Shown here one piece after another: positions 45,034-61,989 of a stretch of DNA of 64,000 bases (positions within the stretch are counted from its first letter, which is position 1; each line of letters opens with the position of its first letter). The stretch lies in contig VMFZ01000005.1 in NCBI GenBank assembly GCA_007376285.1, forward strand, positions 699-64,698, in the 5' to 3' direction. The translations under genes were made by a program, and so were the position numbers. The stretch comes from Parcubacteria group bacterium Gr01-1014_17. Its GTDB lineage: Bacteria > Patescibacteriota > Minisyncoccia > Phycocordibacterales > UBA10002. Under the pieces are notes generated by a model that was not told the origin of the DNA, did not search any database, and was given only the letters and a program-made list of their open reading frames with translations.

Positions 45034-46389
45034 ATGCCGTACAAAAAGATACTCTTTTTTGTAAAGTCATTGCGATTTCTGCGCTATTTTAAAAGTGTGG
45101 TTGAAGCTCTGCTTCGCCGTGGGTTTGCTGTGCATATTGTGTTTGATTCGGAGAAATATGAAGAACCGTCCGACAATTCTCTGGAACAATTTAAAAAAGA
45201 ACACCCGCTTTTTTCATGGGAGAATGGGCCGCTTCGCACCGACCGATGGGCTCGCTTTATCATCGCGTGCCGCAATATACGCAATTACGCTTTTTTGGTT
45301 CGCATCCGCGCGGTAAAGCGCCATACTGACCGGATGTTCCAATATCTTCCTGTCTCGTTGAGGAAAAGCATTGCACGCATGCCGTTTTTGCGGTTTGTGA
45401 TTGCACTGCGCCCCGTGGACTTTTTCTTATCTCTCTGCGAATACATGGTGCCGCCAGATATAAGTATTACGAACTATATTCGCGCCGCGCGTCCGAGCGC
45501 CATACTGGTATCGTACCGCAACTTTCCCTGCACTTCTCCTGATATAGATTATCTTAAGTCAGCAAGAAAGTTACGCATACCCGCGGCAACCATCACGCCT
45601 TCGTGGGACAACCTGACGACTAAATCGCTGATTCAAGTAAAACCAGACGCTGTATTGGTTTGGAACGAAGAGCACGCGCATTCAGTGCATCGCTATCATC
45701 ATATTCCGAAAGAGACCATAAAAATAGTTGGCGCCCCCCAGTTTGATGCGTGGTTTGAACGCCGCGTCCCCTTTCAAATTCGTGAACGCTTTATAGACTC
45801 ATATGGGCTTGACCCGAACCGGAAATTTCTTTTGTATATCTCTTCGGCATCGGCTGGACGGCGCAACCCGAACGCGATTCACCTGCTTCGTGAGGCGTGC
45901 AACGCCAGCACGGACCCGCTCGTGCGCACGATACACATTCTCGTGCGCCCCTATCCAGGATACGAAGGATTTTCAGCAGTAGGGAATATATTCGGCGTCA
46001 CGGTCCTGCCGGCTCCGGCAGAGGGGAGACGCACACTTCAAGATGACGCGCTGTTTTACGATTCCATTTTTCATTCTTTTGCGGTGATTGCTTTGGATAG
46101 TGCGGCGTTTTTTGATGTGATGGCGGTCGGCAGACCGGGCATTGTCTACCGAGATGCGCATTTTTCCGACATTCAAAGTGCTGAACATTTTTCAGCACTT
46201 ATGGGGCGTGGAGCGCTCTATGAGGCGAATTCTGGATATAGGTTCACCTCCCTTGTTTCCAGATTACTTGCCGGTAAGGATGAATTTGCCGCGCGTCGCG
46301 CAGAATATTTAAAAAGATTTATACGCCCGCGCGGCATAGAACGAAGTGCCGGTGAAGCCGTTGCAGATGAAGTAGAAAAATTCTTATGA
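45034..46389 (+). CDS. TagF-like GT-B transferase, paralog 4 of 5
   Basis: PSWDNLTTKS...IVGAPQFDAW...FLLYISSASAG...VIALDSAAFFDVMAVGRPGIVYRD blocks. Confidence 0.4.
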   Translation: MPYKKILFFVKSLRFLRYFKSVVEALLRRGFAVHIVFDSEKYEEPSDNSLEQFKKEHPLFSWENGPLRTDRWARFIIACRNIRNYAFLVRIRAVKRHTDRMFQYLPVSLRKSIARMPFLRFVIALRPVDFFLSLCEYMVPPDISITNYIRAARPSAILVSYRNFPCTSPDIDYLKSARKLRIPAATITPSWDNLTTKSLIQVKPDAVLVWNEEHAHSVHRYHHIPKETIKIVGAPQFDAWFERRVPFQIRERFIDSYGLDPNRKFLLYISSASAGRRNPNAIHLLREACNASTDPLVRTIHILVRPYPGYEGFSAVGNIFGVTVLPAPAEGRRTLQDDALFYDSIFHSFAVIALDSAAFFDVMAVGRPGIVYRDAHFSDIQSAEHFSALMGRGALYEANSGYRFTSLVSRLLAGKDEFAARRAEYLKRFIRPRGIERSAGEAVADEVEKFL

Positions 46390-47588
46390 TTCATTCTCTT
46401 TTCAAGAGATTTCGGCTACATTTTTTCGCACTCGCCGCGCTCGCGCTTTTTCCGCTTCTCGCGATTCTTGCTCGCATTCGTGCGCGGGGACGCACCGGCA
46501 ACGCACCGCGTATATTGGTCGTACCAATACTGACGCGCGTCGGGGATTTGGTGTGTTCAACACCGGTGTTTCGGGAAATAAAGATGCACTTTCCAAACGC
46601 CCACCTTGCAGTGGTCGTCGGTCGGAAAGCAAAGGGAATTCTTGTGCACAATCCACGGATTGACGATCTGATTGATTACAATAATGAGCGTTTTCATGGA
46701 TTTGCTGGACGCTGGAGGTTTTTCTATTTTTTATATTCGCAAAAATTTGACGCGGTATTTTCATTGGGAACGAGCGTTATCGGTACGCTTTCCTGTATTT
46801 TCGCCGCCGCTCCGATTCGTGTGAAGACCGTGGTGGCGCACCCGCCGTTTTTTGAGCGATTGACCGATTGGATGAACACAGATCGGGTAACCTATACGCA
46901 CGGCACATTTCTCCAGAAACATTATGTGTCGCTTCTTTCCGCGCTGGGAGTTCGTTCTGCACAACCGATCAAAGAGGTATTCACGACCGAGGCGGGCGAG
47001 AGGAAAGCGCGCGCATTTTTTGATGGCGCGTTTGGAGGCGTTCCGCCGCTTTTGGTTGGTATGACTGTCTCTGCGGGCAACAAGATAAAAGAATGGCCAC
47101 TGGCGCGTTTCGCGGAGGTTGCGGATATACTGGTGGAGAAATATGGAGCAAGAATTATTTTCATAGACAGTCCGGCGAATCGCGAACGCACTGAAGAGGT
47201 GGTGGGTCTGATGAAACGGCGTGCTGCGGCGTGCGCAATAGATTTTTCTTTGGAAGAACTACCTTCGCTCATTAAACGATTACACGCTTTTGTGGCGGTA
47301 GACACGGGCGCTATTTATATTGCGCACGCGCTTGGCGTTCCATTGGTTGATATTATTGGACCCGTTGAGCCGAATGAACAGCCGCCCTCTGATGAAAAGA
47401 GTGTTCAGGTCCTTCCGGCGAGTGGAATCGAGCCCACCTCATTTGTTTTCTATTCGAATGAGTGTAACGGCAATTATATGCCGGCGGTTCTCTCTATTAC
47501 CGCGCCACAAGTCGTTGCGGCTTTTGAGTTGCTCATTGCGCGCGGATTTGTACGCAATGCGCAACCTTTTTATGAAAAGAATTCGTAA
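46386..47588 (+). CDS. Glycosyltransferase family 9 (heptosyltransferase-like), second copy
   Basis: RILVVPILTRVGDLVCSTPVFREIKMHFPNAHLAVVVG N-terminal GT9 signature and VDTGAIYIAHALGVP. Confidence 0.6.
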   Translation: MIHSLFKRFRLHFFALAALALFPLLAILARIRARGRTGNAPRILVVPILTRVGDLVCSTPVFREIKMHFPNAHLAVVVGRKAKGILVHNPRIDDLIDYNNERFHGFAGRWRFFYFLYSQKFDAVFSLGTSVIGTLSCIFAAAPIRVKTVVAHPPFFERLTDWMNTDRVTYTHGTFLQKHYVSLLSALGVRSAQPIKEVFTTEAGERKARAFFDGAFGGVPPLLVGMTVSAGNKIKEWPLARFAEVADILVEKYGARIIFIDSPANRERTEEVVGLMKRRAAACAIDFSLEELPSLIKRLHAFVAVDTGAIYIAHALGVPLVDIIGPVEPNEQPPSDEKSVQVLPASGIEPTSFVFYSNECNGNYMPAVLSITAPQVVAAFELLIARGFVRNAQPFYEKNS

Positions 47589-49353
47589 CATCGCATCGCA
47601 TTGGTGGCGGTTGTTTAATACGCTGTACCGTAGTTGCCGGCGCCGCATGGCATTTGTCGTGTTTCTCGGCTTTGCCTCAAGTTTTTTTGAAGGATTTGGC
47701 GTGGTGCTTCTTGTTCCGCTTATTGCGTTTCTCGTAGGAGGACAGGGTGCGCCAACCGGCGCATTAGCGAACTTTCTTTCAAACATTCCTCTTGGTTTCT
47801 TGGGTGGGTGGTCGTTCAAGGCGGTTTTCGTTCTGGTTGTGGTTTTGTTTTTGGCAAAAGGCGCTCTACTGTTTTGGGCAGGCGTATTCCGTGCGAACAC
47901 ACTGACGAGCTATAGCAGAATGATGCGCGAACGCTTATACCGCCAAATGCTCGGTTCCTCATTTTCTTATTTACGCGCTCAGAAAATAGGAAATTTTAAC
48001 CATATATTGATTTCTGATTTGAAGGCGAGCGTCAAATTGCTTCATTTTTCCACGGATGTTATCCGTTCGGTTGCAAACCTCTTTTCATACGCCGCACTTG
48101 CTTTTCTCCTCTCGCCGGCCATCGCGGGGTTGACGCTTGCCGGAGGCGCGTTGTTTCTCCTTGCATGGAATCCGGTTTTTGCGCGTTTACGGAACTATAT
48201 GCGCAAGCTTATGCGTGTCCGAGCGGACATGACTCACGCTATAGATGAGACGCTCATCGGCATCAAAACCATCAAGGCGCTTGGGGTTGAGAAGGAATCG
48301 CTTCTGCGGGTGCGAGGCTATTTTAATGAGACAGAAGAAGTTGAGCGAAGGAAAGACCTTGCGCGCCTTACCGCCAAGCTCTCTGTTGAGCCCGTATCAC
48401 TCTTTTTCATTATAAGCGTCTTTGCTATATCGTATTACTATTTATCGTTTGATGTAACCACATTCATTCCGATTGTGTATTTGATACAACAGATGTTTAC
48501 GCGCATTGGCAAGATACAGTCTTCGCTTAATGTGGTAGATGATTCCATTGCACATGCGGAAAAAGTCGCGGCTATCATTGCTGAAACTGAAGCTAACAAA
48601 GAGCCGCGCGGCGGTGCTATTCCTTTTTTATTTGAAAGAGAATTGGCGCTTTCGCATATTGAATTTTCATACCGCGGAGAGCCGATTTTTTCTGATTTAT
48701 CTTTTTTCGTGAAGCGAGGCGAATTTGTCGGCATAATCGGACCAACGGGTTCCGGCAAGACAACGATGGTTGATTTATTGCTTCGTTTGATGGAGCCTGC
48801 GGATGGGCATGTGCTTCTTGATGGTAGAGATGTGTCGCAGTTTTCAATTTCTGACTGGCGCAAAAAAATCATGTATGTTCCGCAGGAGAGTTTTCTTTTG
48901 AATGCGACCATAGCAGACAATGTGCGATTTTTGCAGGACATTCCCGATGCGTCAGTGAGGCAGGCGATTTCTCGGGCACAATTAGGGGATTTGGTGGCGC
49001 GCTGGCCGAAAGGAATTGATACGCAGGTTGGTGAGCGCGGCGCCGAACTTTCCGGCGGGGAGCGCCAGCGCATCGCCATTGCCCGCGCGCTTGCGCGCAA
49101 CCCCGATGTGCTCATCTTGGACGAAGCGACGAGCGCGCTTGATTTTGAAACAGAAGCTTCTGTGAAGAATGTTATTGACTCCCTGAAAGGAATGGTAACG
49201 ATTATCGTCATTGCGCACCGCATTTCCACCGTGCTCGGCGCGGACCGTATTATCGCTTTAGAAAATGGGCGGATTGTTGAAGAGGGAAGCCCGAAAGAAC
49301 TTCAGGTGAATCCAGATTCATATTTGTCGCGGATGCTGTCGTTTATCTCATGA
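47557..49353 (+). CDS. ABC exporter, fused permease-ATPase (MsbA/type I exporter-like)
   Basis: Six N-terminal TM helices, then Walker A GPTGSGKTT, signature LSGGERQR and Walker B LILDEAT. The track ORF starts at 47320 inside the upstream gene; an internal ATG (47557 or 47572) is preferred. Confidence 0.8.
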   Translation: MRNLFMKRIRNIASHWWRLFNTLYRSCRRRMAFVVFLGFASSFFEGFGVVLLVPLIAFLVGGQGAPTGALANFLSNIPLGFLGGWSFKAVFVLVVVLFLAKGALLFWAGVFRANTLTSYSRMMRERLYRQMLGSSFSYLRAQKIGNFNHILISDLKASVKLLHFSTDVIRSVANLFSYAALAFLLSPAIAGLTLAGGALFLLAWNPVFARLRNYMRKLMRVRADMTHAIDETLIGIKTIKALGVEKESLLRVRGYFNETEEVERRKDLARLTAKLSVEPVSLFFIISVFAISYYYLSFDVTTFIPIVYLIQQMFTRIGKIQSSLNVVDDSIAHAEKVAAIIAETEANKEPRGGAIPFLFERELALSHIEFSYRGEPIFSDLSFFVKRGEFVGIIGPTGSGKTTMVDLLLRLMEPADGHVLLDGRDVSQFSISDWRKKIMYVPQESFLLNATIADNVRFLQDIPDASVRQAISRAQLGDLVARWPKGIDTQVGERGAELSGGERQRIAIARALARNPDVLILDEATSALDFETEASVKNVIDSLKGMVTIIVIAHRISTVLGADRIIALENGRIVEEGSPKELQVNPDSYLSRMLSFIS

Positions 49354-50705
49354 AAACTATTTTTATTTCAATTCTTTCCGGCGTTGAGGCGAAAGCGATT
49401 TTGCGAACCGATATTCTCGGGACGCTTCTGGCGCGTGGAAACATTCGCGTGGTGCTGTTTGTGAAGAACGCAGCACGCGCCGCATTTTATGAAAAAGAGT
49501 TTTTGCATCCTCGAGTTTGTTACGAAGTAATTGACGCATATGCATTTTCGCCCATAAACACATTGTTTGATTTTCTGAAAAATTTTTTAGTGCGCACTAA
49601 TACGCTCGCGCTCTATCGCCGACTTCTCCTCATTGACCGTAAAAATGTCTTCGTATTTGTCGGAGGTTTTCTGTTCAGTGCACTGTTAGCCAGGCCGCTC
49701 TTTCAGCGTATCGCTCGATTTCTGGACGCCAGTTTTGTGCGCGACCAGATTTTTTACTCGGTGTTTGAGCGCTACAGGCCGTCTCTCGTATTTCTCGCCA
49801 ATCTTTTTGATACGGTGGAAGTAAGTATGCTCCGCGAAGCAAAACGGCGCGGAATTCGCAGTGTAGGTTTTGTTAATTCATGGGACAAAATTGCATCAAA
49901 GGGTTTTTTGCGGCTTGTGTCTGATGTAGTGATTGCACCAAACCATATCGTTAAAGAAGAGGCCATATATTATGATAATGTGCCACGCGAAAAGATTTTT
50001 GTGTCAGGCGTTCCACAATACGATATGTATTGGAGTATAGAAAATATTCTGCCTCGCGAGGTGTTTTTCCAAAAAATGAAGATGGACCCGAAGAAGCGCC
50101 TTATTATATTTGGCCCTATAGGAAAAACACTCAGCAATTCCGATTGGGAGATGATTGACACCATGCATTCATTACTCCAAGTGCATATTCCAGAAACGCA
50201 GATGCTTGCCCGTTTTCAACCAAATGACTTTGCGGGTGATGAAGCAGAATTTCGGAAGCGTCCTTGGCTTCATGTAGATGTTCCTGGTGTGCGCTTTGGT
50301 ACGGGTATTGGGATGGACTGGGATATGACTGCCGCTGAACTCCTTCATTTGAAAAATACACTTTTCCATTGTGCGCTTCTTGTTTCTTATGCCTCCAGTA
50401 TTTCAATCGACGCGGCGGTTTTTGACAAGCCGATAATAAATATTGGATTTGAAATACGCCATGGCGACCCAGCATGGAAACAGCCGACGCGCCGATATGC
50501 AACCGTGCATTACCAAAAAGCGCTCGCAACTGGTGGGATTCGTTTGGTTAAAAGCGAAGAAGAATTGATTGAGTGGATTAAGAAATATCTGGCGCATCCG
50601 CAATTGGACCGTAAAGGCCGCGCGCGCCTCGTGCACGAACAGTGCGTGTATACCGATGGCAAAACAGGCAAGCGCATAGCAGATTTTCTCTTGCGGCAGT
50701 TATAA
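49350..50705 (+). CDS. TagF-like GT-B transferase, paralog 5 of 5
   Basis: NSWDKIASKG...VSGVPQYDMY...LIIFGPIGK...LLVSYASSISIDAAVFDKPIINIGFE...TDGKTGKRI blocks. Confidence 0.4.
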   Translation: MKTIFISILSGVEAKAILRTDILGTLLARGNIRVVLFVKNAARAAFYEKEFLHPRVCYEVIDAYAFSPINTLFDFLKNFLVRTNTLALYRRLLLIDRKNVFVFVGGFLFSALLARPLFQRIARFLDASFVRDQIFYSVFERYRPSLVFLANLFDTVEVSMLREAKRRGIRSVGFVNSWDKIASKGFLRLVSDVVIAPNHIVKEEAIYYDNVPREKIFVSGVPQYDMYWSIENILPREVFFQKMKMDPKKRLIIFGPIGKTLSNSDWEMIDTMHSLLQVHIPETQMLARFQPNDFAGDEAEFRKRPWLHVDVPGVRFGTGIGMDWDMTAAELLHLKNTLFHCALLVSYASSISIDAAVFDKPIINIGFEIRHGDPAWKQPTRRYATVHYQKALATGGIRLVKSEEELIEWIKKYLAHPQLDRKGRARLVHEQCVYTDGKTGKRIADFLLRQL

Positions 50706-50714
50706 TAGAGCGTT

Positions 50715-51932
50715 ATGAATGTCGTGCGTAAAAAAATATGCGTGGTGAACGGAAAGCGGGGCGGTTTTAACGCGCTTCTGCCGACGATGCGCGCGATTGA
50801 AGCGGAACCATCGCTTGAATTGCAGGTGCTTCTGACTGATATGCATCTTTCCGAACAATTCGGATATACCCTTGAGTACGCAAAACGCTACATCTCTATT
50901 GCACGTACCGTTCCCTTGAATCAAACAGGAGGCACGGCACGGGAGAGAGTTGAGGCGCTTGGCCGCGGACTTTCGGGACTAGCAGGCGCGTTTGACGACT
51001 TGAAGCCGGATATTGTGCTTCTTCTCGGCGATCGTTCCGAGACACTCGTTGCCGCATTTGCGGCTTTGCAATTGGGCATTCCAGTCGCGCACATTCAGGG
51101 AGGCGAAGTATCGGGCAATTTAGACGGAATCCAGCGGCACGCGATTACCAAGCTCGCGCATCTTCACTTCACCGAAACTGAACGCGCTCGTCGGACTGTT
51201 CTACATTTAGGCGAAGAACGATGGCGCGTTCAGCGCGTCGGCGCACCGTATTTAGATTTTATTTTCCAAAAATTATACACGCCGGAGCAAGAAGTCCGCG
51301 CGAAGTTTAATCTTCAAGAAAATGAGCCGTTTCTTTTAATTCTTCAGCATCCGGAAACCAGAATGCCTGAGCGTAGTCGGAGCGACATGGAAGAAATCTT
51401 ATCTGCGGTTGAAGCAACGAGCCTGCGCGCGGTGGTCGCGTATCCGTGTTCAGACCAGGGATATGAAGGCATTATTGAAGCAATTGAGACGCGGCGCGGC
51501 AACCCGCAGTTTTCCATCCACAAAAATATCCCAGCTGAGGACTTTATCGGGCTTCAGGCGTGCGCGTCTGTGCTTGTGGGTAATTCTTCGGCAGCGATTT
51601 ATGAAGCGCCGTATTTGTATTTGCCGTCGGTGTCGGTCGGGAGCCGCCAGCGCAAGCGCGAACGGGAAAATAATATCATAGATGTTTTGCCGGAACGCCG
51701 CTTGATTAAAAAAGCGATTGATACGGCGCGTTTTGATGTGATTTTTCGGAAAAAGTTACACAGCCTGCGCCGTATCTACGGAGACGGAAAAGCGCATAAA
51801 CGAATTGTAAACGCTTTGCGCAAAGCCCCTCCGCGCGCGCGACTGTTTAAGAAGTCCCTCACTCATTACAGCATAAAACGCCAACTATTTGACCGATATG
51901 TAAAGCCACTAACCGACCGCTTGCGCGCGTAA
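50715..51932 (+). CDS. UDP-N-acetylglucosamine 2-epimerase (WecB/NeuC family)
   Basis: ICVVNGKRGGFNAL...LLLGDRSETLVAAFAA...HIQGGEVSG...THLHF motifs. Confidence 0.8.
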   Translation: MNVVRKKICVVNGKRGGFNALLPTMRAIEAEPSLELQVLLTDMHLSEQFGYTLEYAKRYISIARTVPLNQTGGTARERVEALGRGLSGLAGAFDDLKPDIVLLLGDRSETLVAAFAALQLGIPVAHIQGGEVSGNLDGIQRHAITKLAHLHFTETERARRTVLHLGEERWRVQRVGAPYLDFIFQKLYTPEQEVRAKFNLQENEPFLLILQHPETRMPERSRSDMEEILSAVEATSLRAVVAYPCSDQGYEGIIEAIETRRGNPQFSIHKNIPAEDFIGLQACASVLVGNSSAAIYEAPYLYLPSVSVGSRQRKRERENNIIDVLPERRLIKKAIDTARFDVIFRKKLHSLRRIYGDGKAHKRIVNALRKAPPRARLFKKSLTHYSIKRQLFDRYVKPLTDRLRA

Positions 51933-52004
51933 CAAAAACCGAGTTATTTTCGTTCCAAGAAATGGATATGCACGGAGAAAATAGAAAAATCAGAAAGGTA
52001 AGAA

Positions 52005-53231
52005 ATGAAGATAGAAAAAGAAGAGAAACAATTGACGGTATTAGTATTGGGTGGCGACGGATATCTCGGGTGGCCTACCGCGATGCATTTTGCGGCGCGA
52101 GGCCATGCGGTTGCGATTGCGGATAACCTCCAAAAACGGCGGATGGAAGAAGAAGTTGGCGGCGAACCCTTGTTTCTCCGCCCGACGCTTCAGCGGCGGG
52201 TCAAGCTTTGGAATTCGCTCAATGCCGGACATTACATTGCATTGCCCCCGGGCAATGTCATTGATATTGCGCAAAATGGGCCTGCGCTCATTGACTTCAT
52301 ACTTCGGTTTGAGCCTGATGTCATCATCCATTACGCGGAGCAGCCATCGGCACCATACTCAATGTGGAGCCGTTCGCGGGCAGTCAATACGGTTGTAAAC
52401 AATAGCGCTGGAACGCTCAATGTGTTGTTTGCGATTCGCGAGCTAAAGCGTCAAAACGGCAAAGACGCGCATCTTATCAAGTTGGGAACAATGGGCGAGT
52501 ATGGGACGCCAAACATTGATATTGAAGAGGGGTGGTTGGAAGTTGAACACAATGGTCGCAAAGACCGTTTGCCGTTTCCGAAACTCCCCGGCAGTTTCTA
52601 TCACGCTAGCAAAGTTGCGGACTCTGCCTACATTGAGTTCGCGTGTCGCGCGTGGGGGATTCGGGCGACTGACCTCAATCAGGGAGTGGTGTACGGAATC
52701 GATACGGCCGAGACAACACTTCATACTGACTTGGTCACCAGCTTCCACTATGATGCCGTGTTTGGTACCGCACTCAATCGCTTCATTGCGCAGGCGGTCG
52801 TGGAAGTCCCGCTTACGGTGTACGGCAAGGGTGGGCAGACGCGCGGATATTTGAACATTCGCGATACACTCCAGTGTGTTGCCTTGGCGGCGCAGAGTCC
52901 GCCGAATGCCGGAGAGTTCCGTGTGTTTAACCAGTTCACCGAGCAGTTCTCTGTGCTGGATCTTGCGGAAAAGGTGAAACGAGTTGGCAACACGCTCGGT
53001 CTCATCGTGGTCATTGACCACATTCAAAATCCACGCGTGGAGAAAGAGGCGCACTATTACAACCCCAAGCACACCGGTCTTTTGTCGCTTGGGCTTCAGC
53101 CACATCTGCTCACCGACGAAGTGATCACCGAAATGATACAAAAAGTCATCACAGCGCAAAAGGCGATTGACCGCGATGTCATTGCGCCTCGCATCCTTTG
53201 GCGTCCAGTCGAGGAAGCGCCATCAATCTAA
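52005..53231 (+). CDS. sqdB: UDP-sulfoquinovose synthase (SqdB/SQD1/Agl3 family)
   Basis: VLVLGGDGYLGW, HYAEQPSAPYSM, IKLGTMGEYGTPNIDIEEGW and RATDLNQGVVYG are the hallmark blocks of the UDP-sulfoquinovose synthases. Confidence 0.8.
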   Translation: MKIEKEEKQLTVLVLGGDGYLGWPTAMHFAARGHAVAIADNLQKRRMEEEVGGEPLFLRPTLQRRVKLWNSLNAGHYIALPPGNVIDIAQNGPALIDFILRFEPDVIIHYAEQPSAPYSMWSRSRAVNTVVNNSAGTLNVLFAIRELKRQNGKDAHLIKLGTMGEYGTPNIDIEEGWLEVEHNGRKDRLPFPKLPGSFYHASKVADSAYIEFACRAWGIRATDLNQGVVYGIDTAETTLHTDLVTSFHYDAVFGTALNRFIAQAVVEVPLTVYGKGGQTRGYLNIRDTLQCVALAAQSPPNAGEFRVFNQFTEQFSVLDLAEKVKRVGNTLGLIVVIDHIQNPRVEKEAHYYNPKHTGLLSLGLQPHLLTDEVITEMIQKVITAQKAIDRDVIAPRILWRPVEEAPSI

Positions 53232-53235
53232 ACAT

Positions 53236-53272
53236 AGCACCCGATGTCTGCAAAACATCGGGTGTTTTTTAT
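53236..53272 (+). terminator. Rho-independent terminator (CACCCGATGT-CTGCAAA-ACATCGGGTG followed by TTTTTT)
   Basis: A 10 bp stem with a T6 tract after the sqdB stop. The stem is the same as in the in-frame palindromes at 103-135 and 3884-3922. Confidence 0.65.
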
Positions 53273-53288
53273 AAGTTATACTGTCTGT

Positions 53289-54191
53289 ATGCGTTTGCTT
53301 ATCACCGGCAGTTCCGGCTTTATTGGCTCGTATGTCGCAGAAGAAGCTCGTGCGCGCGGGCATGAGGTATTTCCTTTTGATATAAAAGGAAGTTCACGCA
53401 ATGATTTTCGTCATTTTAGCGCAATCAAAAATGCGTGCAAAAAAGCAAAACCAGAGGCCGTCGTCATACATCTCGGCGCGTTACCATCGGTACAGCAGTC
53501 AATTAAAGAGCCGGAAGTAACCTATGAGACGAATGTACGCGGCACATGGAATGTGCTGGAAGCCGCGCGCCTAGGAGGCGCGCGGCGGTTCGTATTTGCA
53601 TCTTCCGCCGCGGTATATGGCACGACCGGCGAAGAATATGACGGCAAGCCGCTATCGGAAGATTTACCGCTTCAACCGAAAAATCCGTATGGACTTGCGA
53701 AAAAAATCGGCGAGCAGATGGTGGAAATGTGGTCGCGCGACACATTATGGAAAAACATTGACGGCGTGTCTTTGCGGTTTTTCAATGTATTTGGTCCTCG
53801 CCAAAGGCGGGATAGCGCGTACGCTACTGCTATTGAAAAGTTTTTGTATCAAGTTGCGAAAAAAGAGCCGCTTACTGTTGTCTCTCCAGGCACTCAGCGC
53901 CGCGATATGGTATTTGTGAGGGATGTTGCGCGCGCCGTGCTTGCCGCCGCGGAAGCAAAGAAGCCGTTGTGCGGTGTCGCCATAAATATCGGGAGCGGCG
54001 CGAATTACTCCATTCAGGAGATTGCGGATATAATTGGCGGTAAAAAATATCCGCGTGTTATGCTCCCACCACGGCAAGGCGATGTACTCGAAGTCCTCGC
54101 GGACATCTCGCGCGCCAAGACACTCCTAAACTGGTCGCCCGAGGTCTCGTTTGAAGAAGGGATTAAAATTATAAAAAAATGCAAGCAATAA
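53289..54191 (+). CDS. NAD-dependent epimerase/dehydratase (UDP-hexose 4-epimerase-like)
   Basis: MRLLITGSSGFIGS and YGLAKKIGEQ. The track start at 53244 lies inside the terminator hairpin, so ATG 53289 is preferred. Confidence 0.7.
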   Translation: MRLLITGSSGFIGSYVAEEARARGHEVFPFDIKGSSRNDFRHFSAIKNACKKAKPEAVVIHLGALPSVQQSIKEPEVTYETNVRGTWNVLEAARLGGARRFVFASSAAVYGTTGEEYDGKPLSEDLPLQPKNPYGLAKKIGEQMVEMWSRDTLWKNIDGVSLRFFNVFGPRQRRDSAYATAIEKFLYQVAKKEPLTVVSPGTQRRDMVFVRDVARAVLAAAEAKKPLCGVAINIGSGANYSIQEIADIIGGKKYPRVMLPPRQGDVLEVLADISRAKTLLNWSPEVSFEEGIKIIKKCKQ

Positions 54192-54871
54192 TTTTAGCAG
54201 CGGGACGCGGCGAACGGCTTCGGCCGCTTACGGATTCCACGCCGAAGCCGCTTATTTTGGTTGAAGGGCAATCAATGATTGCCCATGCTCTTAACGCGTT
54301 ACCTGACGCAGTTACCGAGATTGTTATTGTTGTCGGTTATCTCGGAGAACTTATTGAAAAGATCATAGGATTTTCTTGGAAAGGAAAACCGGTTCGGTAT
54401 GTGCGGCAGGAGAATGGGCGAACTGGAACTTTTGCCGCGCTTTCTGCCGCAAAAAAGATTCTCAGCGAACGATTTTTAGTCCTCGCAAGCGATGTGTTTT
54501 ATAAAAAAGATGACTTAACCAATTTACTTAACCATACGCTCGCCCTTTTAGTTCGGAAAGAAGTTGGCGACGATTCGCGCCGTATCGCGCAATGCATCGT
54601 TGAAAACGAAATTCTTTGCGGTATTAACGAAGGGGAAACCCCGAAAGGAAAGGTGTTTGCGAACTCCTCGGCGTATGTGCTTGATAAACGAATCTTTGAC
54701 GAGCCGGTTGTGCGCGGAGAAAACGGAGAGGAGTGGCTCTCGGTGATGGTGGGAAATCTCGCATCCCGCGTTCCTATTCGCACAGTGGTCAGTACTTTTC
54801 ATGCTACTATCACAAATTCAGAGGACATTCCTCGTGTTGAAAATAAATTACGCGCGCATTTGACAAAATGA
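54179..54871 (+). CDS. Sugar-phosphate nucleotidyltransferase (NTP_transf_3 / MobA-like fold)
   Basis: MQAIILAAGRGERLRPLTDSTPKPLI glycine-rich loop. Confidence 0.55.
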   Translation: MQAIILAAGRGERLRPLTDSTPKPLILVEGQSMIAHALNALPDAVTEIVIVVGYLGELIEKIIGFSWKGKPVRYVRQENGRTGTFAALSAAKKILSERFLVLASDVFYKKDDLTNLLNHTLALLVRKEVGDDSRRIAQCIVENEILCGINEGETPKGKVFANSSAYVLDKRIFDEPVVRGENGEEWLSVMVGNLASRVPIRTVVSTFHATITNSEDIPRVENKLRAHLTK

Positions 54872-54921: not shown

Positions 54922-55506
54922 ATGAACATTGAAAGACGAGAATCAGTTTTGCGGATTGAACAGGACGAAGTCGTGTTTGAGGGTAGGTTTTCCACAACAA
55001 CACAACGACATTTCACGAATACACGGGACGGAAAACACGGTGTCTGGGAAGTTTTTTCGCGCAAAGGCGCAACTGGACGAGTTGTTGGTGTACTTGGAGT
55101 AACATCTGCGTTTGACGCAGTGTTGGTAAATATCTATCGCGTACCACTTCGTGCGTGGGTTGTTTCGTTAGTATACGGAGGGTGTATGTCGGGAGAATCC
55201 GAAACGCAAACGGCTCAGCGCGAGTTTCAAGAAGAAACTGGATATGTTATCAACGAACCTCGTTTGCTTTTTGCAGGCCCTTTTGCGCCCGGGGTAATGG
55301 CGGATGAGATGTCTGTTTTTGTCGGTTTTGGGGCTACGCCGAGCGGAGCGGCTAGTTGTGATGTTGCGGAAGACATAGACATTCTTGTTTTACCTCTCCG
55401 TGACGCAACAAAAGAACTCGCATCACTTTCGCTTTCAGGAAAAGCATTGGTTGATGTGAAAGTTTTTGGTGCGCTATATGCCACAAAAGAAATCTGCGGA
55501 TTGTAG
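54922..55506 (+). CDS. NUDIX hydrolase
   Basis: Nudix box GESETQTAQREFQEETG. Confidence 0.7.
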   Translation: MNIERRESVLRIEQDEVVFEGRFSTTTQRHFTNTRDGKHGVWEVFSRKGATGRVVGVLGVTSAFDAVLVNIYRVPLRAWVVSLVYGGCMSGESETQTAQREFQEETGYVINEPRLLFAGPFAPGVMADEMSVFVGFGATPSGAASCDVAEDIDILVLPLRDATKELASLSLSGKALVDVKVFGALYATKEICGL

Positions 55507-56347: not shown

Positions 56348-58330
56348 CTAAACCGTTTCAACAGTTCTGAGCATTTTGGTGACATTCTGTTTGCTGAGAA
56401 CCCGTGATACCCCGATCGGGTCGTTTCCGTAAAGACGCAGTAGGTCGTTGATCTGCGCTTTTTGGCTTTCGGTATGGAAGAATCGCACCCATATTCCTTC
56501 CTGTATAGCATTACCGCAGTTCGAGAAGTCAAAATGAAAGAAACCCTCCCGTACCGTGTCTGTGTCAAGGAACTCATGTTTTTTCATAATGGAAAAGATT
56601 TCCAGTTCATGAAGGTATAAAAGTTCGTCGTTTACTATCGTTCGCGCGCAAAAGAACGCATATTGCATGATCTCATCCACCGCATCCATAAATGCCATGG
56701 CTTTGAAGCGGTATATCATATTACTCCCATGCTTTCCATTAGCATATTCCGCAATTGCAGCAGTATTCTTTGCCGATTTTTGGAGCGCATCTTCTGACAG
56801 AAACAACTCCTCGATTGTTTCTTTTCGGAAACTATTGAAGATATCTTTCAACTTCGGCGGAAAGTTTTCCCTCCAACCATTGAAGAGGTTCAGAATGAAG
56901 TCCGATGTCTTTACTCCACGCTCATTAAGGAACGAAAAAAGTTCTACCAAAATGCTGTCGTTGTAGAACACTTCTATGGCGAGATGGAAGAGCCGCATTT
57001 CCAAATACTCCTCAAACGAGAGGTCTTTTGTAGAAGTACATATTTCTTCAATTTCCACGCTCACGATAGGTTCTTCATTGCCGAACGGATACACGCCGAA
57101 ACATTGCGACATCACCCGGTATCCTGTTTTCATATCAAACTTCTCCCGTGTTTCCGCCGCGCTCATCTCCACTCCCATAAGCATCATGAGCGGATAATTG
57201 CGGATGAACTGAAATCCCGCGTCCAAAAGGATTCGATTGGTCTCAATATGAGACATGACCGAATCCCCCGGCATCGCGAGAATTGACTCCGAGTATACAT
57301 TACTTCCCAGCTCACGGGCTTTTTGCGCAAGCTCCATAAGTTGGTCAGCTTTGATATTATTCCGTTTTATGTTTTTGAGCACTTCTTCGGAGAGCGATTG
57401 CACTGCGCCAGAAAGCCGAAGCGCCCCATGCACATTTTTTGCAACGCGTAGCACCCGCTCTTTCTGGTTTTTACCGGTGGCGACATGAATGTATTCCGGC
57501 CAGCCGAACTCGTTCTGGATGCGCGCAATTGCATCACCGATTTTCTCATCTTCCGGGTACATCCCGAAGTTTGAATCCACGATGTGCAAATCATGGACCG
57601 TCTTGTGTTTACGCTCCGCAATATAGCGCAGTTCTCGTTCAATTGTTTCGGTTCCGCGCCGATTGACTTTGTTGTAATACAGGAGTCCTTCTACGCAGAA
57701 GGTGCAAGTAAACGGACAGCCGCGATTGCACTGAATCATCGGTACGATGTGTGGTTCAAAAAACTCGTCTAATACTCCCGTCAAATATGGCGAGGGTATT
57801 TCGTCAAGGTTTTTTACCCGTTCCGCCGGCGGAACGATGACCGCTTTCCCTTCTCGGATAAAGTGGCAACCGGGCAACGCGATATTTTTTGCCACTTCAG
57901 CATCCCATCCGTTTTCGGTCAGCGCTTCCAAAAGCGCGGTAAAGCCGACCTCCCCCTCTTTGTAGACATAAAAATCTACGAGAGGATATTTTCGGAGAAA
58001 CTGTTCTTGCTCTGCGGGGTTGGTAGGATAATTCGGTCCGCCGAACACGATGATGGTTTGGGGATTTTTTTGCTTAATCCGTTGCGCAAAACTATACGAC
58101 AGGTCAATGTTCCACATATAGTTGCTGAACGCAACCATAGGCGGAATGTCTTGTAACAGAGCGTCAATCAGTTTGTTCGGATATTTGAAAATCCGAAAAT
58201 TAAACCTATCCTCACCTTTCAGGTGGGATGCGGCGTAGGTAACGAGGCACGCGACTGGGTAGGGCATGCAGTTTAAGGCGATGGTCTTGTAAGTATGTGT
58301 TAAATCACATACGAATATTTGTGTATTCAT
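56348..58330 (-). CDS. B12-binding-domain radical SAM protein (class B radical SAM, candidate methyltransferase), ~661 aa
   Basis: N-terminal B12-binding-like region (IIVFGGPNYP), then the radical SAM CxxxCxxC CNRGCPFTCTFC, and a ~250 aa C-terminal extension. The track ORF extends to 59032 with a low-complexity 234 aa N-terminus overlapping the divergent neuB gene. That extension is judged not to be real, and the start is placed at MNTQIF. Confidence 0.65.
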   Translation of the reverse strand: MNTQIFVCDLTHTYKTIALNCMPYPVACLVTYAASHLKGEDRFNFRIFKYPNKLIDALLQDIPPMVAFSNYMWNIDLSYSFAQRIKQKNPQTIIVFGGPNYPTNPAEQEQFLRKYPLVDFYVYKEGEVGFTALLEALTENGWDAEVAKNIALPGCHFIREGKAVIVPPAERVKNLDEIPSPYLTGVLDEFFEPHIVPMIQCNRGCPFTCTFCVEGLLYYNKVNRRGTETIERELRYIAERKHKTVHDLHIVDSNFGMYPEDEKIGDAIARIQNEFGWPEYIHVATGKNQKERVLRVAKNVHGALRLSGAVQSLSEEVLKNIKRNNIKADQLMELAQKARELGSNVYSESILAMPGDSVMSHIETNRILLDAGFQFIRNYPLMMLMGVEMSAAETREKFDMKTGYRVMSQCFGVYPFGNEEPIVSVEIEEICTSTKDLSFEEYLEMRLFHLAIEVFYNDSILVELFSFLNERGVKTSDFILNLFNGWRENFPPKLKDIFNSFRKETIEELFLSEDALQKSAKNTAAIAEYANGKHGSNMIYRFKAMAFMDAVDEIMQYAFFCARTIVNDELLYLHELEIFSIMKKHEFLDTDTVREGFFHFDFSNCGNAIQEGIWVRFFHTESQKAQINDLLRLYGNDPIGVSRVLSKQNVTKMLRTVETV

Positions 58331-58429
58331 GCGGTTGGTCTTTCTGTTTGAGGTTTTTTGTAAAGGTTCTTTTCCGGTAGTATTCTCACATAACTTTTCT
58401 TGTTTCGCAAGTGTTCTATAATTCACCAT
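58331..58429. promoter_or_regulatory. Divergent promoter region between the class B radical SAM gene (-) and the NeuB-family gene (+)
   Basis: ~100 bp AT-rich spacer between divergent ATGs. No motif verified. Confidence 0.3.
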
Positions 58430-61025: not shown

Positions 61026-61063
61026 AGAAAGGAATGGTGCTAGTATTCTGTTTGGAAAAATGA

Positions 61064-61150
61064 AACATCCCCCCAACCCCCCTTGAAAGGGGGAGCCTCA
61101 GAAAATCCTCCCTTGAGGGAGGTGTCTCCCGTAGGGAGACGGAGGATGTT
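61064..61150 (+). repeat. 87 bp structured repeat element, copy 1 (terminal inverted repeats AACATCC/GGATGTT, three internal hairpins)
   Basis: AACATCCCCCCAACCCCCCTTGAAAGGGGGAGCCTCAGAAAATCCTCCCTTGAGGGAGGTGTCTCCCGTAGGGAGACGGAGGATGTT. Hairpins: CCCCCC/GGGGG, CCTCCC-TTGA-GGGAGG and GTCTCCC-GTA-GGGAGAC. Confidence 0.6.
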
Positions 61151-61174
61151 GTCTTAAAAACAAAAGGAAAACAA

Positions 61175-61831: not shown

Positions 61832-61918
61832 AACATCCCCCCAACCCCCCTTCAAAGGGGGAGCTTCTGAAAATCCTCCCTTGAGGGAGGTGTCTCCCGT
61901 AGGGAGACGGAGGATGTT
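61832..61918 (+). repeat. 87 bp structured repeat element, copy 2 (3 substitutions relative to copy 1, all in a hairpin loop or the first linker)
   Basis: Same sequence as copy 1 except TTCAAA for TTGAAA and GCTTCTG for GCCTCAG. Begins directly after the HAD stop codon. Confidence 0.6.
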
Positions 61919-61920
61919 CA

Positions 61921-61960
61921 TAACACCCGATGAAAATCGGGTGTTTTCTTTTGTTTCTTT
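61921..61960 (+). terminator. Rho-independent terminator (ACACCCGAT-GAAA-ATCGGGTGT followed by a T-rich tract)
   Basis: Hairpin with a T-tract immediately after repeat copy 2. Same CACCCGAT stem family as the other palindromes. Confidence 0.6.
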
Positions 61961-61989
61961 TTTCCTCCCTCTGTGGTTATATAATTCGT

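What the first reader, a model, noticed from the sequence alone, without database searches (positions are those of the whole stretch)
52005..53231. UDP-sulfoquinovose synthase inside a bacterial surface-glycan locus
The SqdB/SQD1/Agl3 hallmarks are clear. In bacteria sqdB normally sits with sqdX/sqdD-type lipid glycosyltransferases for sulfolipid. Here it is embedded in a glycan locus, as in the archaeal N-glycan agl3, implying a sulfoquinovose-containing glycan. An epimerase and a nucleotidyltransferase immediately downstream could supply UDP-glucose.
Basis: partly seen in the sequence, partly recalled or inferred. Interest (0 to 1): 0.6.

Follow-up and report, generated by a model that had tools for sequence, protein, structure and literature searches.

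The report
Sulfosugar synthase inside sialic-acid-like cassette
A tiny groundwater bacterium (Parcubacteria) carries a true relative of the enzyme that makes the plant sulfolipid sugar, but the gene sits inside a conserved gene set for sialic-acid-like sugars, which points to a sulfonated surface sugar not yet described in bacteria.

Summary
ORF 52005-53231 (+, 408 aa) is a full-length member of the SQD1/SqdB/Agl3 family: 55% identical to Arabidopsis SQD1 (E 1e-134), with every catalytic motif present, and SQD1 is by far its best structural match. The source is Parcubacteria group bacterium Gr01-1014_17, from a lineage reported to lack lipid synthesis. No SqdX-type lipid glycosyltransferase lies in the 64-kb window, which consists almost entirely of glycan genes.

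The gene lies between a NeuC-type hydrolysing 2-epimerase and an SDR, a CMP-transferase and NeuB. In a survey of 167 homologues, one clade of 40 from several phyla shows this linkage: 19 of 22 well-flanked loci in the clade against 0 of 70 outside it. An APS/PAPS reductase, which makes sulfite, abuts the gene in six loci. One Saccharibacteria contig carries two parallel NeuC-MTase-CMPt-NeuB modules that differ only by an inserted reductase-SqdB pair. The SqdB-linked NeuBs form their own subfamily.

My favoured reading (about 0.45) is that the enzyme supplies a C6-sulfonated UDP-sugar that becomes a 9-sulfo nonulosonic acid. The main rival (about 0.35) is plain UDP-sulfoquinovose used as a residue of a glycan that also contains a nonulosonic acid. 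Neither has been tested biochemically.

The parts
52005..53231 (+). SqdB/SQD1/Agl3-family SDR of the 'NulO-linked' clade (signature K36 E40 N78 P101 S229 H231 N267 in SQD1 numbering); predicted sulfite-dependent UDP-sugar C6-sulfonate synthase
50715..51932 (+). NeuC-type hydrolysing UDP-HexNAc 2-epimerase, 73 bp upstream of SqdB; closest solved relative is the LegG-type GDP/UDP-diNAcBac 2-epimerase
   Evidence: TIGR03568 336 bits, above the 235.9 cutoff; PF02350; PDB 5zlr 188 bits versus GNE 151
53236..53266 (+). 12-bp-stem hairpin followed by a T-run, directly after the SqdB stop codon; one of three copies of the same palindrome in the window
53244..54191 (+). Second SDR, 4-epimerase-like; the true start is probably 53289 (MRLLITGSSG; relatives are 302-306 aa); a conserved partner of SqdB in 11 lineages
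54179..54871 (+). Sugar-1-phosphate nucleotidylyltransferase (Arch_glmU N-domain 125 bits, AglF-like 96 bits, both below cutoff); present only in this genome among clade loci
54922..55506 (+). NUDIX hydrolase (weak NudE-like hit); present only in this genome
55552..56295 (+). CMP-nonulosonate synthetase-like cytidylyltransferase (CTP_transf_3; PseF-like 139 bits); the most frequent neighbour of SqdB in the clade
56348..58333 (-). B12-binding radical SAM C-methyltransferase (KedN5-like). The mechanical ORF runs on to 59032, but relatives are 661 aa
58400..59443 (+). NeuB-family nonulosonate synthase of the SqdB-linked subfamily (His at NmNeuB position 112, Trp at 288, Arg314 kept)
49350..50705 (+). 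451-aa GT-B transferase (Glyphos_transf / BFO_1060-family, weak hits); candidate transferase for the cassette's sugar; co-inherited with the clade in 11 lineages
47320..49353 (+). ABC exporter with fused TMD and NBD (relatives are ~597 aa, so the start is probably near 47560); co-inherited in 8 lineages
45034..46389 (+). Second 451-aa paralogue of the GT-B / BFO_1060-like family
46386..47588 (+). GT9 (heptosyltransferase-like) glycosyltransferase; conserved only in the closest relatives
43214..44215 (+). D-2-hydroxyacid dehydrogenase; sits inside the cassette in the alphaproteobacterial and actinobacterial versions (NeuB-NeuC-2HDH-CMPt-SqdB)
59487..63779 (+). Second ulosonic-acid module: NeuB-cupin fusion (59487-61025), HAD phosphatase (61175-61831), second CTP_transf_3 (61930-62712), GFO/IDH/MocA oxidoreductase (62709-63779)

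Best explanation
The ORF encodes a functional SqdB/SQD1-type enzyme. By homology to SQD1 and Agl3, it oxidises C4 of a UDP-hexose with tightly bound NAD+, eliminates water to form the 4-keto-5,6-ene, adds sulfite at C6 and reduces C4 again.

In this Parcubacterium, and throughout a clade of about 40 sampled homologues, the gene does not serve sulfolipid synthesis. It is an integral gene of a nonulosonic-acid (NulO) cassette.

The route I favour puts it in the place that the C6-modifying dehydratase (LegB, PseB or Pen) holds in legionaminic and pseudaminic acid pathways:
1. UDP-GlcNAc plus sulfite gives UDP-6-deoxy-6-sulfo-GlcNAc, optionally 4-epimerised by the adjacent SDR.
2. The LegG-like NeuC hydrolyses and 2-epimerises it to 6-sulfo-ManNAc.
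3. The specialised NeuB condenses that sugar with PEP to give a 9-deoxy-9-sulfo-nonulosonic acid.
4. The CTP_transf_3 enzyme activates it as the CMP-sugar.
5. A 451-aa GT-B transferase and the ABC exporter place it on a surface glycan.

What is shown: family membership, the conserved motifs, the conserved gene linkage, the neighbouring sulfite-producing reductase in relatives, and the separate NeuB subfamily. What is inferred: the sugar substrate (UDP-GlcNAc or UDP-Glc), the hand-over to NeuC and NeuB, and the final product.
For: Family membership and chemistry. The published fingerprint [ST]MG...Yx3K (PMC8987622) is met.

Conserved linkage:
- The order NeuC-SqdB-SDR-CMPt...NeuB is kept in relatives down to 81% identity.
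- SqdB lies directly between NulO genes, in shuffled orders, in Patescibacteria, in Pseudolabrys and other Alphaproteobacteria, and in a locus carrying a protein (P0106) that NCBI labels Gaiellaceae.
- In the 167-homologue survey a single NJ clade of 40 holds 31 of the 33 linked loci. With at least 3 kb of flank on both sides the count is 19 of 22 inside against 0 of 70 outside (Fisher p 7e-17). The 31 linked loci form 26 clusters at 80% identity, and the nearest NulO gene lies a median 1.1 kb away.

Sulfite supply: an APS/PAPS reductase lies within about 0.7 kb upstream of SqdB in 6 of 40 clade loci against 1 of 127 outside. It passes the NF002537 cutoff and has the CC...CxxC...ECGLH motifs.

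L011 carries two tandem modules, NeuC-MTase-CMPt-[CysH-SqdB]-NeuB and NeuC-MTase-CMPt-NeuB, that differ only by the inserted pair.

SqdB-adjacent NeuBs from all phyla form one subfamily. It is separate from N. meningitidis NeuB and from the second NeuB copies of the same genomes. It has invariant His112 and Trp288 and keeps Arg314.

The cassette NeuBs score below the Neu5Ac-synthase equivalog cutoff: 262-323 bits against 399.65.

NeuC is closest to LegG, which acts on a C6-modified HexNAc. The SDR is closest to UDP-GlcNAc and UDP-GlcA 4-epimerases.

No classical GT2 or GT4 family is co-inherited with the clade.

A precedent for a 5,6-ene intermediate opening a NulO pathway is Pen of B. thuringiensis (PMC8987622).
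Against: - The SqdB active-site motifs are essentially identical to those of UDP-glucose-using SQD1. Only about 5-7 clade-marking positions differ, none lies in a catalytic motif, and most are shared with sister groups that have no NulO genes. There is therefore no visible adaptation to a 2-acetamido substrate.
- One clade member (L014) sits in a glycan locus without NulO genes, and two others (L020, L141) are unlinked.
- The Terriglobia and Chloroflexota sister groups pair SqdB with the SDR without NulO genes. The pair can therefore serve other glycoconjugates.
- NeuC, NeuB and CMPt already make a complete canonical sialic-acid pathway without SqdB.
- The donor of the 451-aa GT-B proteins cannot be assigned, so one of them could be a UDP-sulfoquinovose transferase.
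- No C-sulfonated nonulosonic acid has been reported in the library searched.
- The window itself has no sulfite-producing gene.
Confidence: 0.45

Rival explanations
1. The enzyme makes ordinary UDP-sulfoquinovose from UDP-glucose and sulfite, possibly 4-epimerised to UDP-sulfofucose by the adjacent SDR. A glycosyltransferase of the locus adds that sulfohexose as a separate residue to a surface glycan that also carries a nonulosonic acid. The tight linkage then reflects a conserved SQ-plus-NulO epitope inherited as one unit.
For: - The active site is indistinguishable from that of UDP-Glc-using SQD1.
- Agl3 sets the precedent for sulfoquinovose in a protein glycan (PMC4388408).
- A sugar-1-P nucleotidylyltransferase with AglF-like similarity lies two genes downstream.
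- L014 and the Terriglobia and Chloroflexota sister groups use SqdB, with or without the SDR, in the absence of NulO genes.
- NeuC, NeuB and CMPt are self-sufficient for a sialic acid.
- The GT-B paralogues have an unassigned donor.
Against: - If sulfoquinovose were an independent residue, the gene should often occur in glycan loci without NulO genes, and it should travel with a dedicated UDP-hexose glycosyltransferase. Instead 19 of 22 well-flanked clade loci are NulO-linked, the gene usually lies between NulO genes, and no GT2 or GT4 family is co-inherited.
- It does not explain why L011 keeps two full NeuC/CMPt/NeuB sets that differ only by CysH-SqdB.
- It does not explain why SqdB-linked NeuBs are a distinct subfamily.
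- The nucleotidyltransferase is present in only 1 of 40 clade loci.
Confidence: 0.35
2. The enzyme has lost sulfite addition and acts only as a UDP-sugar 5,6- or 4,6-dehydratase, like Pen, PseB or LegB. It would start a 9-deoxy nonulosonic acid pathway.
For: - Agl3 and SQD1 release the 5,6-ene when sulfite is absent (PMC4388408; PMC8987622).
- Arg101, essential in Agl3, is Pro here.
- The gene's position in the cassette matches that of LegB or PseB.
Against: - A bona fide APS/PAPS reductase abuts the gene in six clade loci.
- All other SQD1/Agl3-specific motifs, TMGEYGTPNIDIEEG and SFYHxSK, are invariant.
- Pro101 is also found in most sampled bacterial homologues.
- Leg- and Pse-type routes need an aminotransferase and an acetyltransferase. 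I found no DegT-family aminotransferase in the window ORFs I scanned.
Confidence: 0.07
3. Classical role. The gene makes UDP-sulfoquinovose for the membrane sulfolipid SQDG, using an SqdX- or SqdD-type transferase encoded elsewhere in the genome and host-derived diacylglycerol.
For: - This is the textbook function of bacterial SqdB.
- sqdB and sqdX are unlinked in some cyanobacteria (PMC13436972).
- Only 64 kb of the genome could be examined.
Against: - No SqdX-like GT4 occurs in the window or next to any clade member, whereas the control (Alicyclobacillus) shows SqdB-GT4 next to a lipid gene.
- Parcubacteria are reported to lack fatty-acid and phospholipid synthesis (PMC4508563).
- The gene lies in a run of 16 co-directional glycan genes.
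- The clade is distinct from the SQD1/Alicyclobacillus clade.
Confidence: 0.05

Closest known systems
SQD1 (Arabidopsis) / bacterial SqdB, the UDP-sulfoquinovose synthase of sulfolipid (SQDG) synthesis
   Same: Same protein family and fold: 55% identity over the full length and TM 0.83-0.87. The GxxGxxG motif, the T/Y/K triad, His183, the TMGEY motif and the C-terminal UDP-sugar domain are all shared. The same sulfite-addition chemistry is presumed.
   Different: It belongs to a separate phylogenetic clade, with seven fully discriminating positions including Arg101Pro. There is no SqdX-, SQD2- or SqdD-type lipid glycosyltransferase nearby. Its host lineage is reported to lack lipid synthesis. 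The gene is embedded in a NulO cassette and not beside lipid genes.
Agl3 of Sulfolobus acidocaldarius (sulfoquinovose for the N-glycan)
   Same: An SqdB-family enzyme that serves a glycan and not a lipid. A sugar-1-P nucleotidylyltransferase lies nearby in this window. From my own recollection, which I did not check here, agl3 neighbours the UDP-glucose pyrophosphorylase gene agl4.
   Different: This is a bacterium, not an archaeon. The protein is closer to plant SQD1 than Agl3 is (55% against the ~40% identity the paper reports for Agl3). It lacks the Arg101 that is essential in Agl3. No AglB-type oligosaccharyltransferase was seen. The linkage is to NeuC, NeuB and a CMP-transferase, which Agl3 loci are not known to have.
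LegB/PglF, PseB and Pen, the first-step SDR dehydratases of legionaminic and pseudaminic acid pathways
   Same: An extended SDR that modifies C6 of a UDP-sugar through a 4-keto and 5,6-ene intermediate. It is encoded next to a hydrolysing 2-epimerase (LegG/NeuC-like), a NeuB-family synthase and a CMP-transferase. The position in the cassette is analogous.
   Different: It is not homologous at the subfamily level: the motif is TMG, not TDK or TDE. It would add sulfite where those enzymes reduce to a 6-deoxy sugar. No aminotransferase or N-acetyltransferase accompanies it.
NeuC-NeuB-NeuA pathway for CMP-N-acetylneuraminic acid
   Same: All three enzyme families are present and adjacent. NeuC passes the TIGR03568 cutoff.
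   Different: The NeuB and CMP-transferase proteins fall below the equivalog cutoffs. NeuB belongs to a distinct SqdB-linked subfamily. The cassette adds SqdB, with or without an APS reductase, a 4-epimerase-like SDR or a 2-hydroxyacid dehydrogenase.
6-C-sulfofucose in Thermoplasma acidophilum N-glycans
   Same: A C6-sulfonated hexose of galacto configuration in a surface glycan. An SqdB-plus-4-epimerase pair, like SqdB plus the adjacent SDR here, would yield UDP-sulfofucose.
   Different: It is archaeal. As far as I know its biosynthetic genes are not established. No NulO linkage has been described (papers listed; the rest is from my own knowledge).

Membership tests
SQD1/SqdB/Agl3 UDP-sulfoquinovose synthase family | Extended-SDR two-domain fold with an N-terminal GxxGxxG NAD site and full-length similarity to solved SQD1 | tested here: met
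   G16-G-D-G19-Y-L-G22. phmmer against 1i24/1qrr gives E 1.5e-134 over residues 11-402. Foldseek gives E 1e-43 and TM 0.83-0.87, with the next hit at E 1e-16.
SQD1/SqdB/Agl3 UDP-sulfoquinovose synthase family | Catalytic Thr145 / Tyr182 / Lys186 and the family fingerprint [ST]MG...Yx3K (PMC8987622, Table 1) | tested here: met
   T162-M163-G164 and Y199...K203 are invariant in alignments A1 and A2; fingerprint quoted.
SQD1/SqdB/Agl3 UDP-sulfoquinovose synthase family | His183 next to the catalytic Tyr, and the Glu147/Tyr148 dehydration pair of Agl3 | tested here: met
   H200, E165 and Y166 are conserved. The mutational data come from PMC4388408.
SQD1/SqdB/Agl3 UDP-sulfoquinovose synthase family | Agl3-essential residues His95, Arg101 and Met145 (alanine mutants are inactive) | tested here: not met
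   His (H109) and Met (M163) are present, but Arg101 is Pro114. Pro or Ala occupies this position in about 120 of the 167 sampled homologues across many phyla. It is therefore a subfamily trait and not a lesion. Its consequence for activity has not been tested.
SQD1/SqdB/Agl3 UDP-sulfoquinovose synthase family | NCBIfam NF041015 equivalog score at or above the curated cutoff (575 bits) | tested here: inconclusive
   The score is 423 bits. Experimentally validated SQD1 scores 485 and Alicyclobacillus SqdB 475, so both also fail the cutoff. The cutoff does not delimit the functional family.
SQD1/SqdB/Agl3 UDP-sulfoquinovose synthase family | Catalyses UDP-Glc + sulfite -> UDP-sulfoquinovose | not testable with these tools
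   The only support is indirect: a sulfite-producing APS/PAPS reductase directly upstream in 6 of 40 clade loci. There is none in this window.
Bacterial sulfolipid (SQDG) system SqdB + SqdX/SqdD | A sulfoquinovosyl-diacylglycerol-forming glycosyltransferase (GT4 SqdX/SQD2 or GT8 SqdD) adjacent or elsewhere in the genome | tested here: not met
   phmmer with the Alicyclobacillus SqdX-type GT4 finds nothing in the 64-kb window and nothing adjacent to any clade member. The positive control worked. The rest of the genome could not be examined.
Bacterial sulfolipid (SQDG) system SqdB + SqdX/SqdD | The host makes diacylglycerol lipids | not tested
   The source was identified as Parcubacteria group bacterium Gr01-1014_17. 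The literature states that the Parcubacteria genomes studied have no fatty-acid or phospholipid synthesis genes (PMC4508563). I did not check this MAG itself.
Nonulosonic-acid (NulO) biosynthesis cassette (NeuC/LegG - NeuB/LegI/PseI - NeuA/LegF/PseF) | Hydrolysing UDP-HexNAc 2-epimerase | tested here: met
   For 50715-51932, TIGR03568 scores 336 bits against a 235.9 cutoff. The closest PDB entry is a LegG-type enzyme.
Nonulosonic-acid (NulO) biosynthesis cassette (NeuC/LegG - NeuB/LegI/PseI - NeuA/LegF/PseF) | NeuB-family PEP-condensing synthase with metal and PEP ligands and the SAF-domain Arg | tested here: met
   For 58400-59443: NeuB_NnaB 270 bits, which is below the 399.65 equivalog cutoff, and NmNeuB E 1.7e-40. 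The residues equivalent to K53, Q55, K129, S132, E134, Y186, S213, H215, E234, H236, D247 and R314 are conserved.
Nonulosonic-acid (NulO) biosynthesis cassette (NeuC/LegG - NeuB/LegI/PseI - NeuA/LegF/PseF) | CMP-NulO synthetase (CTP_transf_3) | tested here: met
   For 55552-56295: PF02348 at E 2.6e-21, and PseF-like at 139 bits, below the 205.7 cutoff.
Nonulosonic-acid (NulO) biosynthesis cassette (NeuC/LegG - NeuB/LegI/PseI - NeuA/LegF/PseF) | SqdB-type enzyme as a pathway member (a proposed new variant) | tested here: inconclusive
   The genetic linkage is strong. No biochemical evidence exists, and no pocket change towards a 2-acetamido substrate is visible.

The most novel reading that the evidence does not exclude
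A clade of SqdB-type enzymes, found in Patescibacteria, Alphaproteobacteria and a locus labelled Actinomycetota, is the committed step of a previously unrecognised pathway. The pathway leads to C-sulfonated sialic-acid-like sugars (9-deoxy-9-sulfo-nonulosonic acids). Sulfite, supplied in some genomes by a dedicated APS/PAPS reductase, is fixed onto C6 of a UDP-HexNAc. A LegG-like NeuC, a specialised NeuB subfamily and a CMP-transferase carry the sugar forward, and it is displayed on the cell surface of ultra-small episymbiotic bacteria.
Probability: 0.4. Interest if true: 0.9.

Novelty: new variant of a known kind. Interest (0 to 1): 0.7.

Why it matters
[quoted passage not shown] Recent reviews treat its synthesis as a matter of phototroph sulfolipid (PMC13436972), with the archaeal N-glycan as the only exception I know of.

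This locus, and the clade it represents, shows SqdB-type C-S bond formation tied genetically to sialic-acid-like sugar synthesis in non-phototrophic bacteria. These include CPR bacteria, which live attached to other cells and invest a large share of a tiny genome in surface glycans. Here 64 kb is glycan genes, and Parcubacteria genomes are generally under 1 Mb.

If the product is a sulfonated nonulosonic acid, it would be a new class of acidic surface sugar. It would also be a new sink and source in the organosulfonate cycle, and a new epitope relevant to host attachment. Even on the conservative reading, it would be the first genetic evidence I could find, in the library searched, for sulfoquinovose-type sugars in bacterial surface glycans.

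The prediction can be tested directly with four or five recombinant enzymes.

Tried and rejected
(1) Arg101Pro as a sign of lost or altered function. Rejected as a discriminator: Pro or Ala at this position occurs in most sampled bacterial homologues, whatever their context.

(2) The NCBIfam cutoff failure as evidence against membership. Rejected after calibration with SQD1 and Alicyclobacillus SqdB.

(3) Clade-specific residues as evidence of a switch to UDP-GlcNAc. Only 5-7 marker positions were found. Most are shared with sister groups that lack NulO genes, so they are lineage markers.

(4) Fold search of the 451-aa transferase to assign its donor. It returned only a generic GT-B fold, resembling WecB, MshA and TagF.

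(5) The original SQD1 structure paper, needed for the sugar-contact residues, is not held. I therefore could not map the pocket around C2.

(6) An exact-sequence look-up of the SqdB-like protein found no record. The source was identified through the transaldolase instead.

The closest relatives (81-92% identity) came only from three contig look-ups, and the survey is a sample, not a census.

(8) The promoter scan is at chance level, 22 found against 19 expected. No tRNA or Rfam family was found in the window.

(9) Literature searches for any link between sulfoquinovose or sqdB and nonulosonic acids returned nothing. That means absence from the held library only.

(10) The Fisher test treats loci as independent, but related sequences share ancestry. 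For that reason I also report 26 clusters at 80% identity and the shuffled gene orders.
Full report
**1. What is at the coordinates**

An ATG-initiated ORF occupies exactly 52005-53231 on the + strand and encodes 408 aa.
- It aligns over residues 11-402 with Arabidopsis SQD1 (PDB 1i24/1qrr) at E 1.5e-134. The next solved family reaches only E 2.6e-9.
- Its best NCBIfam model is UDP-sulfoquinovose synthase NF041015 (E 8e-127, full length). Pfam sees only the generic Epimerase / GDP_Man_Dehyd SDR domains.
- The published family fingerprint [ST]MG...Yx3K (PMC8987622) is met.
- An AlphaFold model (pLDDT 78) has SQD1 as its best structural neighbour at E 1e-43 and TM 0.83-0.87, against E 1e-16 for the next hit.

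The 423-bit NCBIfam score is under the curated 575-bit cutoff. I calibrated that cutoff and found that validated SQD1 scores 485 and Alicyclobacillus SqdB 475. The cutoff therefore says nothing about function.

One residue that is essential in Agl3, Arg101 (R101A is inactive; PMC4388408), is Pro114 here. Pro or Ala occupies this position in most bacterial homologues I sampled. By alignment with E. coli GalE, from my own knowledge, the position corresponds to Lys84, an NAD contact and not a sugar contact.

**2. Source and surroundings**

The window's transaldolase is 100% identical to a protein of Parcubacteria group bacterium Gr01-1014_17 on a 65,147-bp contig. The organism is therefore a CPR/Patescibacteria MAG. 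Parcubacteria are reported to have genomes generally under 1 Mb with no fatty-acid or phospholipid synthesis genes (PMC4508563).

Almost every ORF I scanned in the 64-kb window has a glycan-related Pfam family: glycosyltransferases, many methyltransferases, sugar-nucleotide enzymes, a carbamoyltransferase, radical SAM enzymes and an ABC exporter. A few ORFs gave no hit.

The gene lies in a run of 16 co-directional, closely packed genes from 38064 to 56295. Its immediate neighbours are:
- upstream, a NeuC-type hydrolysing 2-epimerase (TIGR03568 336 bits, above the 235.9 cutoff);
- downstream, a 4-epimerase-like SDR, a sugar-1-P nucleotidylyltransferase, a NUDIX protein and a CTP_transf_3 cytidylyltransferase;
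- on the opposite strand, a B12-radical SAM methyltransferase;
- then a NeuB+SAF synthase;
- then a second module of a NeuB-cupin fusion, a HAD phosphatase, a second CTP_transf_3 and a GFO/IDH/MocA oxidoreductase.

No SqdX-like GT4 exists anywhere in the window.

**3. Relatives and their contexts**

The closest homologues (81-92% identity) come from unnamed metagenome contigs and keep the same order: 2-Hacid_dh, FkbM MTase, unknown 451-aa protein, GT9, ABC exporter, 451-aa GT-B protein, NeuC, SqdB, SDR, CMP-transferase, rSAM on the minus strand, NeuB, then NeuB-cupin.

More distant homologues (62-68% identity) are again embedded among NeuC, NeuB and CTP_transf_3 genes, but in different orders. 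They come from other Patescibacteria, from Pseudolabrys (Alphaproteobacteria), and from a metagenome locus carrying a protein (P0106) that NCBI labels Gaiellaceae.

I then fetched 160 further loci from species-representative genomes and from metagenomes and annotated them with phmmer seeds taken from the window. In an NJ tree of 167 non-redundant homologues:
- one clade of 40 holds 31 of the 33 NulO-linked loci;
- among loci with at least 3 kb of flank on both sides, 19 of 22 are linked inside the clade and 0 of 70 outside (Fisher p 7e-17);
- the linked members form 26 clusters at 80% identity;
- the nearest NulO gene lies a median 1.1 kb away, start to start.

As a control, in Alicyclobacillus, which falls in the same clade as SQD1, SqdB is followed by a ~390-aa GT4 of SqdX architecture and preceded by phosphatidylserine decarboxylase. 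The method therefore detects the classical sulfolipid arrangement where it exists.

Other out-of-clade homologues neighbour GT2, GT21 and PMT_2-type transferases.

**4. Clues to mechanism**

(a) Sulfite. A 225-232-aa APS/PAPS reductase lies within about 0.7 kb upstream of SqdB in 6 of 40 clade loci, against 1 of 127 outside. It passes the NF002537 cutoff and has the CC...CxxC...ECGLH motifs. This argues that the clade still consumes sulfite and counts against a dehydratase-only role.

(b) Tandem modules. The Saccharibacteria contig L011 carries NeuC-MTase-CMPt-[reductase-SqdB]-NeuB, followed directly by NeuC-MTase-CMPt-NeuB. Two complete enzyme sets imply two different products. The only extra enzymes in the first set are the reductase and SqdB.

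(c) NeuB subfamily. The SqdB-adjacent NeuBs of all phyla form one subfamily. It is separate from N. meningitidis Neu5Ac synthase, from the second NeuB copies of the same genomes, and from the cupin-fused NeuBs. They have invariant His at NmNeuB position 112, Trp at 288 and Phe at 140, and they keep Arg314. From memory, Arg314 is the N-acetyl contact of NmNeuB. All cassette NeuBs score below the Neu5Ac-synthase equivalog cutoff.

(d) NeuC. The window's NeuC is closest among solved structures to LegG, which acts on a C6-modified UDP-HexNAc.

(e) The adjacent SDR. It is closest to a UDP-GlcNAc C4-epimerase and to a UDP-GlcA 4-epimerase (descriptions).

(f) Co-inherited families. These are NeuC, CMPt and NeuB (16 lineages each), the 451-aa GT-B family (11), the SDR (11), the ABC exporter (8) and the 2-hydroxyacid dehydrogenase (7). 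No classical GT2 or GT4 is among them. The 451-aa proteins hit weakly the BFO_1060 family. Its Tannerella members are genetically validated Pse/Leg-derivative transferases (PMC5420450). Structurally, however, they are only a generic GT-B fold.

**5. Evidence against the sulfonated-NulO route**

- The enzyme's active-site motifs are the same as in UDP-glucose-using SQD1.
- Seven positions separate the NulO-linked sequences (31 of 31) from the SQD1-type group (46 of 46). Six of them are shared with Terriglobia and Chloroflexota sister groups, which pair SqdB with the SDR but have no NulO genes. These positions are lineage markers, not proof of a new substrate.
- L014 is a clade member in a glycan locus that has a PglF-like dehydratase, a WecA-type transferase and a UDP-sugar dehydrogenase but no NulO genes. 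L020 and L141 are unlinked.
- NeuC, NeuB and CMPt can make a sialic acid without SqdB.

**6. Conclusion**

The glycan, non-lipid role is well supported. Whether sulfoquinovose itself is the glycan residue is open.

I favour the view that the enzyme is the C6-modifying first step of a NulO pathway that yields a 9-deoxy-9-sulfo-nonulosonic acid (about 0.45). The alternatives are plain UDP-sulfoquinovose for a NulO-containing glycan (about 0.35), a non-sulfonating dehydratase (about 0.07) and sulfolipid synthesis (about 0.05).

No held paper mentions nonulosonic acids and sulfoquinovose together, and recent reviews treat SqdB only in the sulfolipid context. I rate this a new variant of a known kind.

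Noticed in passing
window 59487-63779; also L001, L004, L008, L009, L090: A second conserved ulosonic-acid module: NeuB fused to a C-terminal cupin, a HAD phosphatase, a second CTP_transf_3 and a GFO/IDH/MocA oxidoreductase. The cupin-fused NeuBs lose the Arg314 equivalent and carry D247N and E134S. This suggests a non-N-acylated (KDN-like, sugar-phosphate-derived) substrate.
   Followed up: partly
window 102-134, 53238-53264, 61924-61943: Three copies of a palindromic hairpin with the stem CACCCGATG...CATCGGGTG, each intergenic and followed by a T-run. One sits in the short gap between the SqdB stop codon and the next SDR gene. It may be a terminator, an attenuator or a REP-like element.
   Followed up: partly
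L011 1-9853: Two tandem, parallel NulO modules in a Ca. Saccharibacteria contig: NeuC-MTase-CMPt-[PAPS reductase-SqdB]-NeuB and NeuC-MTase-CMPt-NeuB. This is a natural with/without comparison for the role of SqdB.
   Followed up: yes
L008 9299-9976, L011 3025-3723, L090 9293-9970, L092, L095: An APS/PAPS reductase (CysH-like, with Fe-S-type CC...CxxC and ECGLH motifs) lies directly upstream of SqdB in CPR genomes. Such organisms are usually thought to lack assimilatory sulfate reduction, which suggests a dedicated sulfite supply.
   Followed up: partly
L037, L046, L051, L077 and about 28 other out-of-clade loci: In Actinomycetota, Solirubrobacterales, Chloroflexota and Acidobacteriota, the SqdB homologues neighbour membrane GT2, GT21 (ceramide-glucosyltransferase-like) or PMT_2-type GT-C transferases, not SqdX. 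This hints at further non-SQDG uses of sulfoquinovose in bacteria.
   Followed up: partly
window 56348-59032 (-) versus 58400-59443 (+): The mechanical ORF for the B12-radical SAM protein (894 aa) overruns the NeuB gene on the other strand. Relatives are 661 aa, so the real gene probably ends (that is, has its 5' start) near 58333. Similarly, the ABC exporter ORF (677 aa, TTG start) is about 80 aa longer than its relatives.
   Followed up: partly
window 7789-12198: A run of sugar-phosphate genes inside the glycan island: an RpiB-cytidylyltransferase fusion, a PfkB kinase, an unknown 413-aa protein, a class II aldolase and a transaldolase/FSA. It may be a pathway to an unusual nucleotide-activated sugar.
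   Followed up: no
window 17313-29267: Genes typical of branched or rare deoxysugar synthesis: a sugar C-methyltransferase (19307-20560), a TylF-type O-methyltransferase (12229-12945), a pair resembling the E1 alpha and beta subunits of a thiamine-dependent dehydrogenase (25633-27491), a radical SAM/SPASM protein (28293-29267, minus strand) and several SDRs.
   Followed up: no
window 36001-38000: GC content drops to 0.396 against about 0.47 elsewhere. The region is ORF-poor, and one 263-aa ORF (36852-37643) has no Pfam hit. It may mark a junction between two glycan sub-clusters or an insertion.
   Followed up: no
window 38064-40762, 45034-46389, 49350-50705, 12978-14363: Five paralogues (18-34% identical to one another) of a ~450-aa GT-B protein family with faint Glyphos_transf / BFO_1060 similarity lie in one locus. 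That is an unusual expansion of a putative ulosonic-acid or phospho-sugar transferase family.
   Followed up: partly
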